In this document: in pieces, positions 30,001-36,000 of the stretch
How positions within the stretch are numbered: position 1 is the first letter of the stretch
Layout: each line of letters begins with the position of its first letter
Assembly (NCBI GenBank): GCA_049322915.1
Contig: JBMOPW010000036.1
Span: 32,001 to 96,000, forward strand
Direction: 5' to 3'
DNA: 64,000 nt
Origin: Candidatus Zhuqueibacterota bacterium
GTDB taxonomy: Bacteria; Zhuqueibacterota; Zhuqueibacteria; Thermofontimicrobiales; Thermofontimicrobiaceae
Made by a program: the position numbers

Positions 30001-33000
30001 CCGAAAGAGATTTACGATGTGATCATGGAATTGGCCGGAAAAAAGTAACTGCCGCGCGCGCATCAGCAGAGCGATCCGATCCGGTAAAAACCCTGTGTGC
30101 GTCGGCCAGGTTCAAGGCACGATTGAAAATTAGAATGCTATTTTAGTCAGAGGAACCATACATGTTCAATTACGAAAAATATCTCCGAATAAAAAAATTC
30201 CCGCTTATCTGGTGCGCCGGCTGCGGCGATGGTATTGTTCTCAAAGCGATGCTCCGCGCCATTGATCGCATCGGACTCAATAAAGATGAAATTACCATGG
30301 TCTCCGGCATTGGCTGCTCCAGCCGATTGACCGGCTACGTTGATTTCAATACGCTGCACACCACTCACGGACGCGCCATTGCGTTCGCCACAGGCGTTAA
30401 AATGGTGAAGCCGGGAATGACGGTCATCGTCGTCACCGGCGATGGAGACGCTACTGCCATCGGCGGAAATCATTACATTCATGCGGCGCGCCGGAATATC
30501 GATATCACGGTGATTTTATTCAACAACAATATTTATGGGATGACCGGCGGGCAGGCATCGCCGACGACCCCATTCGGATTTCGCGCGAGCACAGCGCCCT
30601 ATGGCAGCGTCGAAAATACCTTCAACATCAGCGGATTGGCCGAAGCTGCCGGCGCCAGTTTTGTGGCGCGGGGCACCGTGTACGATGCGCTGAAGCTGGA
30701 TAAAATGATTGAAAAGGCGATTCTGAAAAAAGGATTTTCCGTGGTGGAAGTGATGACGCCCTGTCCCACCGCATTTGGCCGACGCAATCGACTGGGCAAC
30801 GGCGCCGCAATGATCAAACAACTCAAAGAGGATGCAGTGTCCGTACAGAAGGCCGAGTCGCTGTCGGAAGAGGAATTGGCCAGCAAAATTGTCACCGGCA
30901 TTTTTGTGGACCGAGACCGGCCTGAATACACTGCCAATTATCAAAAACTGGTTGATCAACTCAAAGCGAAATGAGTTCGCGGAACAATTATTTTTAATGC
31001 TTCGAAGTCCCACGTCCATTGCGTGGGATTTTTTTTATCAAGCAGGTTCGTTTCTGGAAACAGGGACATCGGGCAAAAAATACAAGGATGGTATTCGCAC
31101 GATGCGCCTTTTCTCCCTCAAAAATAAGTTAAAATCTACTTGCAAAAGGTTAATTAAATAATTATATTTAACGCTTTGATGAGGCTACTAACTGGATGAA
31201 TTTTTATGGAGGAGTTCTTTCATGAGCTATCGCTATGAAATCAGATTGAGCGGTGAAGGCGGACAGGGACTGGTTTTGGCTGGAAAAATTCTGGCGGAGG
31301 CGGCTGCAATTTATGATAATAAAAATGCCACTCAGAGCCAATCGTATGGACCAGAAGCGCGCGGTGGAGCCAGTCGTTCTGAAGTGATTATCTCCGATGA
31401 TGAAATTGATTATCCCAAGGCAATGAATATCGATCTCCTTCTTGCGCTGACTCAAGAATCATGCGATCGCTATCACAAAGACTTGAAAGACAGTGGGATT
31501 TTATTGGTGGATACCGATGCGGTGTCGCAATGCCCGCCGGGAAAATTTAAAATTTACCGGGTGCCTATTATCAACATTGCGAGGGACAAAGTCGGCCGGG
31601 TTATGGTCGCCAATATCGTTGCGCTGGGCATTATCGCCGAATTGACGAAGATCGTGTCCATCGAAGCGCTGGAATCGGCCATACTTTCGCGAGTGCCCAA
31701 AGGTACTGAAAAATTGAACATTGAAGCGTTTCGCATTGGGGTGAATACCGGGAAAGAGATCGCTGCGTGAGCGTCGTTGTTGCGGATGGGGAACAGACAA
31801 TGCCGAATGGTATCTCCGGAAGTAACGCTGTACAACGGTCAGAACGAATCGAATGCTCGACATGAGGCATGGTGGCGGGATCGGCAGATGGCGCTGGACG
31901 CTCCTTCTTCGTGAATGGGTTGGGCAGTAATCTCCGGAGAAGAAGGTCTGGGATGGATGGGATCGCTGCGCCGGCGGTGAAATTGCCTCCACGATGCAAC
32001 GACGCGAAATGCGATTCGCCGGAGAGCCGTGGCCAACACCCAATACTTATCATTTGACAAGGTTGGATGCGTGCATCAATATTTTAATAGATTAAAAGAA
32101 CGCGTTGGTTTGCTGGGCAATCACCACCAGAAATATATTCACACCATTGAACTCCACATGGACGGGATGGTGGAGAGCCTGGAAAGGGCAGGCAAAATTG
32201 AAGAAATTCACTTGTGGCGAGGCTCAATACAACCTCGCCAGGAGATGGAAATTATACTCAACGTCGCTCGTTCATTCGAAGAACGACTGACATATCTCGC
32301 CTGTTATTATTCCCTCCAAATTTTACATCTGAACCTTCGGTCCATTGATGTGTTGATGTTGAATCTCACGGCTGCAGAAGATCGCATTTCCATTTACAAA
32401 CAGTTCATGTTGAATACCGGCGCTGAGTTCAGGAAATTAACCGCAGCCTACATGCAGACGCTACTGGAGCTATTTTCCAATTCCACGCCGCTGCCAGCTT
32501 TCACCATGTTGGGTGTGGGCAGTCTCGCCCATCAGGACGATATCGACGTGGGCGTCATCGACGATGGCTCCCAGAACCGGGAAGCGCTCAATCTGGTCAT
32601 TGGCCGTGTTCGAAAAGAGATGTTCAAATGGGCCACGGAATTGCATTTCTATCTCTCAGAACATGTCGGCAGTCAGTTTTATACAGCGTCCATCGATGAG
32701 TACAAGAATTTGCTGGACGAGAAATTACAGGATTTTGTCATCATCAGCGAAATGCTCAGCGCTGTCCCCATTCTGGGCAGCACCGCGCTGTTCGAGACGT
32801 TCGAGCAGGAGATCACCCATCGCTATCATTTTCACAGCAACCGGGATAACAAGTATCATGAGGGATATTTACGGGGGATCCTCGGTGAAATTCGATCGTT
32901 CCTGTTTCGGCAGATCAACGAGGACAAATTAAATCCCAAAGATGACGCTCTTCGGATGATTTCCGGCATCATCTTTTCCGGCAAGACCATTTTCCGAATT

Positions 33001-36000
33001 TACCGCGGCAATCGTTGGGATGTATTGGCGCAGCTCGCCAGAAAAGATACCAGTCGCCGGCACCTGTATCAGAATCTGGAGAATTCGCTGACATTCATGG
33101 AGATATTCCGGCACCTGTTTCAACTGTATGTCGGGCTTGAAGAAGAGGTCAATCTGGACGACGAGAATGTGCCGGAGTATATGTCACTTGTCGCCAGGAC
33201 TCTCGGCTATCGCGATGTTGGGGCAATCAGCGCCTGGGACCATCTGTTGATTCACTACCACGAATATGTGGAATTGGCGCGTCATACGTGCAGCCGGCTT
33301 CTGGGCGATGTGACGGAGCATATTAAATCGGTCAGCATTTTTGCCGATAAAATCAAATCAGCGTGGTACCCGGAACCGTACCGCAGTTATCCCGGCAATC
33401 TTGCCATTGACTTTCTGAAAATCTCCGGCTTTTTCCGCGGCACTAAATTTTGGGACGATATTCTGGAAGCCCTGGAGGCTGAAGACAGTCATGTGCTGGA
33501 AAATTTCGTCAATGATTTCAAGTTGTTGAAACCGCGCTATCAGCAGATTTTGTTCGAGAAATATGGTCGGACGGTTCAGTACGCCATTCTGCCGATGATC
33601 TCCTTCCTGATCATTCTTTCGAAAAACAAGCGAAAACTGGATATCGAAAATTTATTCGACTGCTTCAATCAGGAGTTTTTGAAAAATCTATGGCGCTGTG
33701 ACAACAGAATTGTTCGCCTGACCAATGTGTTTTATCAGGATCCGCAACTGGTCAATACCTATTTATCCATGCTGGAAGTACCGCAGCAACGGCAATTTGC
33801 AGATGTACTGCACGGCGATTTGTGGGAGGCGGAACAGGAACGGCCGCGAGAATTGCTGCTGAATTTGTGCGAGTTGCACTCAAATACCAGTCATTATTTC
33901 AAACGGTTTTTTACACGGGTCGTGTCCAGGTACCCGGAGTACATAAAATATCTGAAGGACACAGCGTCGTTAGCGCAATTCTCCCAGGGCTTCTTCGGAA
34001 GCATTCAGAGTCTCGACAGTTACGAAGATAAAAAAAATCAGTTGGGCGATTATCACGATCTGGAATTTTTCCGCGTGGGATTGGACGCGCTGCATGGAAA
34101 GCCCATCGAACAGATTGACGCCGAGTTCACCGAGTTTTCCGATTCATACATGCAGTTGCTGTTCGATATTTGCAAGCAGTCCGTGAATGAGCAAATTGGG
34201 GGACCCATTGCCACGCGCGACCTGATCGCCATTTACACGGCTGGCGGCTACGCGCGCGAGCAGGCATTCGATGATGATTATGATTTGATCATCATGCTGA
34301 ATGAAAAAGATGAGGAAGTCCGGCAGTACTGCAACAGAATTATCACGATGATGAACAGCGAAATTGTCAAACGCGGCATCATGCCGCATTACCGTTTCGC
34401 AGACCATTTTGGCCATTATGTAACGCTCATCGACGACCTGGACGAGTTCTTCACTCAGGAAGACGAAACCACGTTCATCGACAAATCGCAGATGCTCGGC
34501 GCGCGGATGATTGTCGGCAGCACGATATTTCAAAAGAAGTTCGAAGAGCGAATCATCCATCGGCATATCTACGAAAAATGCGATGAATACATCGGACAGA
34601 TGATCGCAGAAATGCAGTCGCGCCATACGGACAAAAGGAATACGGGCAAGAAAAATCTGAATGTGAAGGAGGGCATCGGCGGCCTGCGCGACATCGAAAT
34701 TTTGCTGTTGATTTTTAAAGCCAAATTCAGGCTGACCGATCCGCTCAATCGGAAACTGCTGCAAACGATCTGTGAGTTGGACAAATCGAATAAGCCGGAC
34801 CTGTGTCAGTTGATGCATCATTTCGATTTTTTGAAACGGCTGCGCGATCTTTACCGTCTCACCGTCTCTGCCGGCAATATTCTGAAGACAGAGTACCTGG
34901 GGCAGGCGGCAAAAATTTTCGGCTACTCGGACCAGGAAGGAAAAAGCGCCATCGATCAGTTGGTTCAGGAATACCTGACCTGCACCGAGCAGGTGCACGG
35001 GATCGTGCAGCGAATGATAGATAAAGTGTATCAGAGGAGTGACGTAACAACGCATGCGTGATGTACAGAACGAAACAGATTTGAGAAACATTGAAATCGA
35101 CAAGGTCGGGGTGAAGAATTTAAAGTACCCGATTGTGCTCAAAGATAAGACGAACGATAATCAGCATACCATTGCCACGATCAATATGTACGTCAATTTG
35201 CCCCATTTATTTCGGGGAACCCACATGAGCCGGTTCATCGAGATACTGAATCGATACCGGCGGGAAATTGACATTCACAAAATGGGGCCGATTTTGAAAG
35301 ACATGAAAGAGAAGCTCAACGCAGCATCCGCCCATCTCGAAATTGCATTTCCGTATTTCGTGGAAAAGAAAGCGCCGGTGTCCGGAGCGAAATCATTGAT
35401 GGGCTACCAGTGCACGCTCATCGGTGATTTGAACCACAACATGAAAATGTGGCTCGGCGTGTCCGTGCCCATTCTGACAGTGTGCCCCTGTTCCAAAGAG
35501 ATCTCGAAATACGGCGCGCACAACCAGCGCGGTGAAATTAAGGCGATGATCGAATTCAGAGGCTTCCTGTGGATCGAGGACGTGATTGAGCTTCTGGAAC
35601 AATGCGCGTCCGGAACCGTGTATTCACTACTGAAGAGAGAAGATGAAAAATTCGTGACGGAGAAATCCTACGAAAACCCAACCTTCGTCGAGGATGTGGT
35701 TCGCAATGCGGCCGTGCGGTTGAACGAGATCAGCAATATTATCAAATACAAAGTCGAAGTGGAGAGTTTCGAGAGCATTCACAATCACGACGCCTATGCG
35801 TGCGTGGAAAAAGAATGACGATTCCGAAGTGTGGTATATTGGGAAATCAATTCTGATGAAGTTAATTTCCAGGCAATTCGTAGAAAAAATAAAAAGTTAT
35901 ATAACTTGAATAGCCCCGACTTTTAAGTCCGGGAACAGAAATTCCCCTTTGATTTTTGGGCTTTAGCCCTTTTTTAGCGTGGACTCATTCTTATACTGTG

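What a model noticed while it worked through the whole genome (the two positions that open the first line are those of the whole stretch)
32071..35061. Orphan GlnE-like twin nucleotidyltransferase in a genome without PII, GlnD or an adenylylatable glutamine synthetase
g04109 (996 aa, 'hypothetical' in databases) has two Pol-beta nucleotidyltransferase domains with intact G[ST]..DxD motifs and folds like both halves of GlnE. The genome has no PII or GlnD, and its glutamine synthetase has Phe at the adenylylated Tyr position. The gene is fixed in a korABCD-X-folE2-ndk-ackA operon, so this family must modify a different target.
Evidence so far: 402 homologues at E<=1e-100, named hypothetical where named; 28 of 41 relatives, 20 of 20 in the order. 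Model pLDDT 89; top hits GlnE N-domain 1v4a E 2e-9 and C-domain 3k7d E 6e-8. D157/D159 and D736/D738 invariant in 46 rows. folE2 adjacent in 20 of 25 loci, korC in 19. No P-II. GS reads INVFNLP at the site.
(Added by a program. Inside this text positions count along the whole contig: contig position 32,001 is position 1 of the stretch shown here. "Call 12" and the like, gene names such as g00115 and contig names such as C1 are that model's own, and its searches are not shown. The text may have been shortened before it was handed on; [...] marks where a part breaks off. The agent that wrote the report below was given it as the finding of a first reader that could run no searches.)

Follow-up and report, generated by a model that had tools for sequence, protein, structure and literature searches.

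The report
Twin nucleotidyltransferase paired with KorC subunit
This unnamed enzyme looks like the classic switch that tags glutamine synthetase with AMP, but it seems to have arisen separately and stays paired with the CoA-binding subunit of a carbon-cycle enzyme, hinting at an unknown on/off tag for anaerobic carbon metabolism.

Summary
The gene (window 32071-35061, +, 996 aa; called X here) is real. It has two Pol-beta nucleotidyltransferase modules, both DxD motifs conserved, and folds like GlnE. The genome (96% complete) has no PII, GlnD or GlnE, and its only GS has Phe at the AMP site. X is not a GlnE: its halves fall outside all 28 GlnE halves on a tree, and orthology to GlnE's AR and AT halves is rejected (AU p=0.006, 0.0004). 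Nine X-bearing genomes have only weak, GSIII-type GS matches, and a distant subfamily coexists with true GlnE. The conserved partner is not folE2 (15 of 66 loci) but korC, the CoA-binding gamma subunit of 2-oxoacid:ferredoxin oxidoreductase (50 of 70). In the own phylum 55 of 56 X genomes carry that KorC clade, often unlinked. In Zixibacteria a stand-alone korC paralogue sits before X in 19 of 21 X genomes and in 0 of 180 others. Best reading: X reversibly nucleotidylates KorC, or is regulated by it. No activity or binding is shown, no X-specific target residue was found, and the Myxococcota subfamily lacks the kor link. Missing PII is weak evidence: 11 of 23 GlnE genomes lack it too.

The parts
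32071..35061 (+). X: 996-aa twin nucleotidyltransferase (GTG start; the frame is open from 32029)
   Evidence: homologues align from residue 1-5
32071..33333 (+). N-terminal module (aa 1-421): helical cap, NT core with G150, D157, D159, H192, E197, and helical bundle with K290, R295. Shortened G..DxD loop; putative removing or sensing site (inferred)
33334..33768 (+). Central helical linker (about aa 422-566) with conserved W461-D462-D463; least conserved region; positional equivalent of the GlnE regulatory region (recalled)
33769..35058 (+). C-terminal module (aa 567-996): NT core G725-G726, R729, D736, D738, H773, R775, D/E804, R812; bundle K866, G870, G871, R873. Putative transferase site (inferred)
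   Evidence: VIA Z 34.1 to 1v4a, 388 aligned, rmsd 3.6; GlnD model E 3e-19
31222..31770 (+). korC, gamma (CoA-binding, domain III) subunit; proposed partner or substrate; Tyr42 (31345-31347) opens a flexible loop
   Evidence: PF01558
28653..28865 (+). korD, 70-aa 2x[4Fe-4S] ferredoxin-like delta subunit
28900..30048 (+). korA, alpha subunit of 2-oxoacid:ferredoxin oxidoreductase
   Evidence: NCBIfam PRK08659 570 bits, cut-off 411
30162..30974 (+). korB, beta subunit
   Evidence: best model PRK09628 (2-oxoglutarate type) 345 bits, under its cut-off 364
35054..35818 (+). folE2, overlaps the X stop by 8 nt; lineage-specific neighbour
   Evidence: 15 of 66 loci
36154..37832 (+). ndk (36154-36585) and ackA (36600-37832); lineage-specific neighbours
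   Evidence: 18 and 13 of 81 loci

Best explanation
X is a bifunctional protein nucleotidyltransferase that arose by its own internal duplication of a GlnD/GlnE-type module, and its cognate protein is KorC, the CoA-binding gamma subunit of a four-subunit 2-oxoacid (probably 2-oxoglutarate):ferredoxin oxidoreductase. Shown: two NT folds with conserved DxD; separate origin from GlnE (on a quick tree); independence from GSI and PII; genetic coupling to korC. Inferred: the C-terminal module (full GG..R..DxD, K866, GGxRD) transfers NMP, probably AMP, to a KorC hydroxyl residue; the first candidate is Tyr42 at the start of the flexible YGPEARG loop, the second Tyr31. This would block CoA use and switch the oxidoreductase off. 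The atypical N-terminal module would remove the tag. In Zixibacteria the stand-alone KorC would be a dedicated modifiable carrier or exchangeable subunit.
For: korC within ~1.2 kb upstream on the same strand in 50 of 70 evaluable GTDB loci across KSB1, Acidobacteriota, Gemmatimonadota, TA06, WOR-3 and Zixibacteria; folE2 15 of 66. Own phylum: 55 of 56 X genomes carry the KorC clade (>=63% identity), versus 10 of 111 without X; in family f10 the 10 X genomes are exactly the 10 with the clade, though unlinked (1.3 Mb apart in single-contig G106). Zixibacteria sample: lone korC paralogue directly upstream of X in 19 of 21 X genomes, 0 of 180 others. GTDB scan with the lone-KorC alignment: 28 of 29 loci have X next, 5 with no other kor gene within 3.5 kb upstream. 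Lone KorC is under purifying selection like X (pN 0.22, pS 0.79, pN<pS in 66 of 66 pairs), and the 12 alpha-subunit loci examined in five such genomes each have a gamma gene close by. Tyr42 invariant in 46 of 46 X-linked KorC, in a low-confidence loop; the neighbouring other-clade KorC has Phe in 12 of 13. Domain III binds CoA (PMC13768988, passages).
Against: No activity, product or binding is shown. No residue in KorA-D marks X genomes: Tyr42 and Tyr31 are also in 8 of 8 X-less f15 operons and in PDB 3on3. The distant Myxococcota subfamily (21 loci) has no kor gene nearby and sits between pgeF and a UDPGP-like gene. 20 of 70 loci lack upstream korC, 12 of them head-to-head with sdhA. G135 and G170 have X without the expected KorC type. 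Both X modules lack the third aspartate of GlnE's D.RLRP motif, so catalysis is not assured. Kin share traits, so the counts overstate independence. The lone-KorC queries were built from X-adjacent genes.
Confidence: 0.4

Rival explanations
1. KorC is not the substrate but the sensor: as a CoA/acyl-CoA-binding protein it docks on X and sets its direction, as PII does for GlnE, while X nucleotidylates another carbon-cycle protein (KorA or KorB, Sdh, SucCD).
For: Explains a stand-alone KorC kept with X. X also sits beside sdh/fum (12 loci), sucCD, malic enzymes and PEPCK. No X-specific acceptor residue in KorC.
Against: No other gene tracks X as closely among the loci examined. X-C scores closer to GlnD, which modifies a small signal protein (profile score 186), than to GlnE AT (141).
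Confidence: 0.25
2. The kor link is historical. X has a family-wide substrate unrelated to KOR (another protein, RNA or a small molecule), shared with the Myxococcota subfamily, and travelled with a TCA gene cluster.
For: The Myxococcota subfamily keeps both active-site motifs without kor neighbours. The KorC clade exists without X (8 f15 genomes). Structural relatives include aminoglycoside and MNT transferases at Z 7-9.
Against: Hitch-hiking does not explain why only korC, not korDAB, is kept next to X under purifying selection, nor the co-presence in unlinked f10 genomes.
Confidence: 0.2
3. X is a highly diverged GlnE that regulates glutamine synthetase, at a shifted site where Tyr is missing.
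For: Best folds are both GlnE halves, including the helical cap (Z 34.1, 30.9). Same length and layout. X and canonical GlnE never share a genome in the phylum (56 and 23 of 167, overlap 0). 13 of 21 order genomes have a Tyr-GS, and 11 of 14 Phe-GS have a Tyr five residues upstream. GlnE can be PII-independent (bioRxiv 10.64898/2026.09.02.748916 and PMC3612183, passages).
Against: AU tests reject XN+AR (p 0.006) and XC+AT (p 0.0004). GlnE signature motifs are absent. Nine X genomes have only weak GSIII-type matches, one a single-contig 100% complete genome. glnA is not among the gene clusters recurring in 3 or more of 81 loci that I annotated. The distant subfamily coexists with GlnE in 3 of 5 genomes.
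Confidence: 0.08
4. X is largely non-catalytic: a nucleotide-binding scaffold or allosteric inhibitor of KOR.
For: Third aspartate absent in both modules; N-module loop shortened and lacking the R812 and GG equivalents.
Against: DxD, K290/K866, R873 and acidic D/E804 and E197 are kept down to about 20% identity.
Confidence: 0.06

Closest known systems
GlnE (glutamine synthetase adenylyltransferase/adenylyl-removing enzyme; PDB 1v4a, 3k7d)
   Same: About 950-1000 aa, two NT plus helical-bundle modules with a helical linker; same fold; DxD in both halves.
   Different: No PF03710 match in this protein; lacks GKLGG.E, D.RLRP and W.ERQA motifs; halves branch outside all GlnE halves; not tied to GSI or PII; tied to korC.
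GlnD (PII uridylyltransferase)
   Same: X-C is most like the GlnD UT domain after X-N (profile score 186; TIGR01693 E 3e-19), with the GGY.R and K..GGLRD motifs.
   Different: No HD or ACT domain matched; a second NT module stands where GlnD uses HD for removal (recalled); PII absent in 31 of 56 carriers.
DrrA/SidM AMPylase domain (PDB 6yx5)
   Same: Single GlnE-type module retargeted to a non-GS protein (Z 22.7), a precedent for target change.
   Different: Secreted effector acting on host Rab GTPases; X is a twin-domain housekeeping-context protein.
DUF294/DUF294_C nucleotidyltransferases (PF03445, PF10335)
   Same: Weak matches to X-C in some homologues; same clan (PMC3710099, passages).
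   Different: No CBS or cNMP domain matched in X; X is duplicated.

Membership tests
Pol-beta nucleotidyltransferase superfamily (GlnD/GlnE clan) | NT fold with G..DxD followed by a PF08335 helical bundle | tested here: met
GlnE | Two homologous NT+helical modules joined by a central region, ~950-1000 aa | tested here: met
GlnE | PF03710 and NCBIfam GlnE model over cut-off | tested here: not met
   no PF03710 at E<=0.1; PRK14109 17 bits versus 625; one homologue, P0032, scores 25.7 versus 24
GlnE | GKLGG.E, D.RLRP (third Asp) and W.ERQA motifs | tested here: not met
   absent in 17 X-N and 17 X-C rows aligned with 28 GlnE halves (21 rows printed)
GlnE | N half orthologous to AR, C half to AT | tested here: not met
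   GlnE halves form one side of a branch, SH-aLRT 100; AU p 0.006 and 0.0004; quick tree, long branches present
GlnE | Host has a GSI with the acceptor Tyr | tested here: not met
   own GS has Phe; 9 carriers have only weak GSIII-type matches; met in 13 of 21 order genomes
GlnE | Adenylylates and deadenylylates GS | not testable with these tools
   needs an enzyme assay
GlnD | UT domain plus HD domain plus ACT domains; TIGR01693 over cut-off | tested here: not met
   68.7 bits versus 519; only PF08335 found
GlnD | PII substrate in the host | tested here: not met
   none in own genome; 25 of 56 carriers have PII versus 53 of 111 non-carriers
DUF294 CBS/cNMP nucleotidyltransferases | cNMP and CBS domains fused to one DUF294 module | tested here: not met

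The most novel reading that the evidence does not exclude
A second, independently evolved GlnE-style add-and-remove enzyme controls a 2-oxoacid:ferredoxin oxidoreductase by reversible nucleotidylation of its CoA-binding gamma subunit across several uncultured phyla, and in Zixibacteria that subunit has been freed from the enzyme to act as a stand-alone, PII-like, acyl-CoA-sensing signal protein.
Probability: 0.33. Interest if true: 0.9.

Novelty: new variant of a known kind. Interest (0 to 1): 0.76.

Why it matters
GlnE and GlnD are the textbook reversible nucleotidylation switches, and both serve nitrogen control (established knowledge). A twin-domain enzyme that reached the GlnE layout separately and is coupled to the gamma subunit of a 2-oxoacid:ferredoxin oxidoreductase would extend this control to the anaerobic TCA cycle. 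My searches of the open library found no paper on such control (listing). The finding is directly testable: a two-gene korC-X cassette names both enzyme and candidate partner. It also gives a name and a hypothesis to several hundred 'hypothetical' proteins.

Tried and rejected
Complex prediction of X(1-820) with KorC was not available: no verdict on binding. RNA runs: no RNA holder listed, so co-transcription is untested. Promoter and terminator scans were near shuffle level (17 versus 12.7 +/- 3.6; 19 versus 11.7 +/- 4.0). Rfam: 0 matches in the window. PADLOC: 0 for X and for the DUF6036-like neighbour. Search for an X-specific Tyr in KorA-D versus 8 X-less operons: none. My first idea that Zixibacterial korC split by duplication within X genomes was dropped: operon-type KorC matches at 39-48% occur across the phylum sample with or without X, so loss of korDAB from an acquired korDABC-X block fits better (L127 shows the full block). 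Cluster c14 'downstream gene' is the antisense shadow of an hdrB-like gene (by eye). folE2, ndk and ackA were rejected as family-wide partners (17, 18, 13 of 81 loci). A locus search with 16 mid-distance homologues failed for lack of conserved stretches; a 5-sequence version gave 5 loci, two of them core-clade X with convergent korDAB, three without kor genes. Earlier findings: none. Literature searches with 0 hits; two searches gave only a HEPN review and one unrelated paper. The careful KorC tree did not finish; the quick tree was used.
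Full report
OBSERVATION. The stated coordinates are window coordinates: a + strand ORF ends at 35061 and gives 996 aa from GTG 32071. It lies in the order korD (28653), korA, korB, korC (31222-31770), X, folE2 (8-nt overlap), ndk, ackA. Pfam finds only PF08335, 70.5 bits in two stretches. NCBIfam's best is GlnD at 68.7 bits (cut-off 519); the GlnE model gives 17 bits (cut-off 625). The halves are 25% identical over 326 aa. The AF2 model has pLDDT 89.5; its best matches are GlnE N (1v4a, E 1.1e-8; Z 34.1, 388 aligned, rmsd 3.6), GlnE C (3k7d, Z 30.9) and DrrA (Z 22.7). In 75 homologues down to about 20% identity, G150, D157, D159, K290, G725, D738 and K866 are kept in 74 and D736 in 73. 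The genome (96.3% complete) has no match to PII, PF03710 or AmtB over cut-off, no GlnD over cut-off and one GS, which has Phe where solved GSI sequences have Tyr (the Tyr loop is identified in bioRxiv 10.64898/2026.09.02.748916, passages).

DISTRIBUTION. 403 proteins match at E<=0.001, named ones mostly KSB1 'hypothetical'; a profile search gives 163 representatives at E<=1e-30. X is in 21 of 21 genomes of the order and in 56 of 167 in the phylum at E below about 1e-100; 15 further weak hits are GlnE/GlnD cross-matches by position and length and were not counted. GTDB loci come from KSB1, Acidobacteriota, Gemmatimonadota, TA06, WOR-3, Zixibacteria and others (best 80 of 254).

IS IT A GLNE? 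Canonical GlnE is in 23 of the 167 genomes, none of them X-positive, which taken alone suits a replacement. Four results argue against. (1) Profile scores: X-N/X-C 219, X-C/GlnD 186, X-C/AT 141, X-N/AR 73, AR/AT 509. (2) On a quick ML tree of 70 domains (17 of 34 extracted X proteins, 14 GlnE, 8 GlnD) all 28 GlnE halves lie on one side of a branch with SH-aLRT 100, the 34 X halves together at 89; constraining X-N with AR or X-C with AT is rejected (p-AU 0.006, 0.0004). Long branches and uneven composition were flagged, so this is good but not final. The simplest reading is a separate internal duplication. (3) X lacks GlnE's signature motifs, including the third aspartate; a conserved PH.R and D/E804 stand in that region. 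(4) Nine X genomes have only a weak PF00120 match (E 1e-17 to 1e-19); five were re-searched and the one scanned, from single-contig 100% complete G106, is GSIII. A distant Myxococcota subfamily coexists with true GlnE in 3 of 5 genomes.

WHAT DOES IT TRAVEL WITH? Among the 80 GTDB loci, korC lies within about 1.2 kb upstream on the same strand in 50 of 70 evaluable loci and an X-type kor gene is in 54 of 80; folE2 follows X in 15 of 66. Twelve of the 20 exceptions are head-to-head with sdhA; sucCD, malic enzymes and PEPCK occur in other loci, so the setting is the TCA/C4 node. In the own phylum 55 of 56 X genomes have a KorC at >=63% identity, against 10 of 111 others. In family f10 the 10 X genomes are the 10 with that KorC although the genes are unlinked. 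In a sample of 201 genomes of the Zixibacterial phylum, X is in 21; a diverged stand-alone korC lies directly upstream of X in 19 of them and in none of the 180 others. One further X genome has a less diverged KorC 0.8 kb upstream; G170 has none of this type. A GTDB scan with 13 lone-KorC sequences returned 29 loci; 28 have X next, 13 of them new, and 5 have no other kor gene in 3.5 kb upstream. The lone copies form one clade (15 rows, SH-aLRT 100, quick tree) and are under purifying selection like X (12 genes, pN 0.22, pS 0.79). In five such genomes the 12 alpha-subunit loci examined (of 21 matches) each have a gamma gene close by. A gamma subunit kept without its alpha, beta and delta partners but with X is the strongest sign that the two proteins work together. 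Caveats: related genomes are not independent, the lone-KorC event may be a single one, and the queries were seeded from X-adjacent genes.

RESULTS AGAINST. No tyrosine or other likely acceptor in KorA-D separates X genomes from 8 X-less operons. The KorC clade exists without X, including PDB 3on3 (its source, Geobacter, is recalled). The 21 Myxococcota loci have no kor gene and a different conserved context, rluD-pgeF-X-UDPGP-like; three mid-distance loci also lack kor genes. So the link holds for the core clade (about 35% identity and above), not the whole family.

MECHANISM. Shown: fold, conserved metal-binding aspartates, separate origin, coupling to korC. From the literature: domain III of these oxidoreductases binds CoA and closes on it (PMC13768988, passages); PMC5020499 (passages) added nothing on acceptor residues. 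Inferred: X-C, which keeps the full GlnD-like motif set, adds NMP; X-N, with a shortened loop, removes it; the acceptor is KorC, first candidate Tyr42, invariant in 46 of 46 X-linked copies, at the start of a loop modelled with low confidence and replaced by Phe in 12 of 13 neighbouring other-clade KorC. The 2-oxoglutarate specificity of this oxidoreductase is inferred from best-matching models below cut-off and PDB names. I put 0.40 on KorC as substrate, 0.25 on KorC as sensor with another target, 0.20 on an unrelated target, 0.08 on GS, 0.06 on a non-catalytic role.

NOVELTY. It works like GlnE/GlnD by anatomy but fails GlnE and GlnD membership. Searches of the open library for GlnE with ferredoxin oxidoreductase and adenylylation, AMPylation with 2-oxoglutarate, ferredoxin oxidoreductase and nucleotidyltransferase and GlnE with KSB1 gave 0 papers; one search listed 17 papers (12 shown, listing only), none on this topic by title or abstract start. 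Subscription journals are not covered and no supplements were read; a supplementary table could list the family. The ESM Atlas holds it as 'hypothetical protein' clusters. Tallies include G158 (GlnE-positive, PII-positive, X-negative) and G162, flagged unpublished; no conclusion depends on them. Verdict: real; new variant of a known kind; interest 0.76.

Noticed in passing
L132:7983-11294, L236:6962-10267 (protein P0113): X fused at its C-terminus to an HdrC-like 4Fe-4S dicluster domain, inside an hdrA-like cluster, with korDAB and hdrC/hdrB-like genes converging from downstream; may be a read-through into a neighbour or a redox-sensing variant.
   Followed up: partly
L100:7233-7985, L104, L108, L112, L118, L124-L127, L129, L145, L146, L155, L157: A 244-aa DUF6036-like nucleotidyltransferase (Pfam E 0.002, under cut-off) sits directly before X, usually after korC, in 14 of 81 loci: a third transferase in the cassette.
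   Followed up: partly
L213-L233: Distant Myxococcota subfamily (about 20% identity) in a conserved rluD-pgeF-X-UDPGP-like order (pgeF 19, UDPGP-like 18 of 21 loci); a candidate second target for the family.
   Followed up: partly
L001:1177-2622 (G000:C1) and L028-L041: A GSI-beta clade with Phe at the AMP site and a 4-residue insertion before it in 14 of 14 order members; similar loops in L183 and L186.
   Followed up: partly
L251-L255: Long canonical GlnE (about 1240-1280 aa open frames) next to glnA in KSB1-phylum genomes, several without PII; about 730 aa separate the starts of the two modules versus about 510-530 in others.
   Followed up: no
window 38175-42361: Sensor kinase with an [FeFe]-hydrogenase-like Fe-S input domain, a single-domain response regulator and a hybrid kinase, followed by an NfnAB-like fusion (42610-44868); recurs downstream of X in about 7 of 81 loci.
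   Followed up: no
L079:7038-7787, L080:2589-3257: IS200-like (Y1) transposase ORF inserted between korC and X; the 300-nt korC-X gap in the window (31771-32070) has no Rfam match.
   Followed up: partly
G133:C3:362275 and G133:C11:110257; G002:C249 and C54: Two copies of X in one genome: identical scores in G133 (possible assembly duplicate), 43% and 40% to the query in G002.
   Followed up: no
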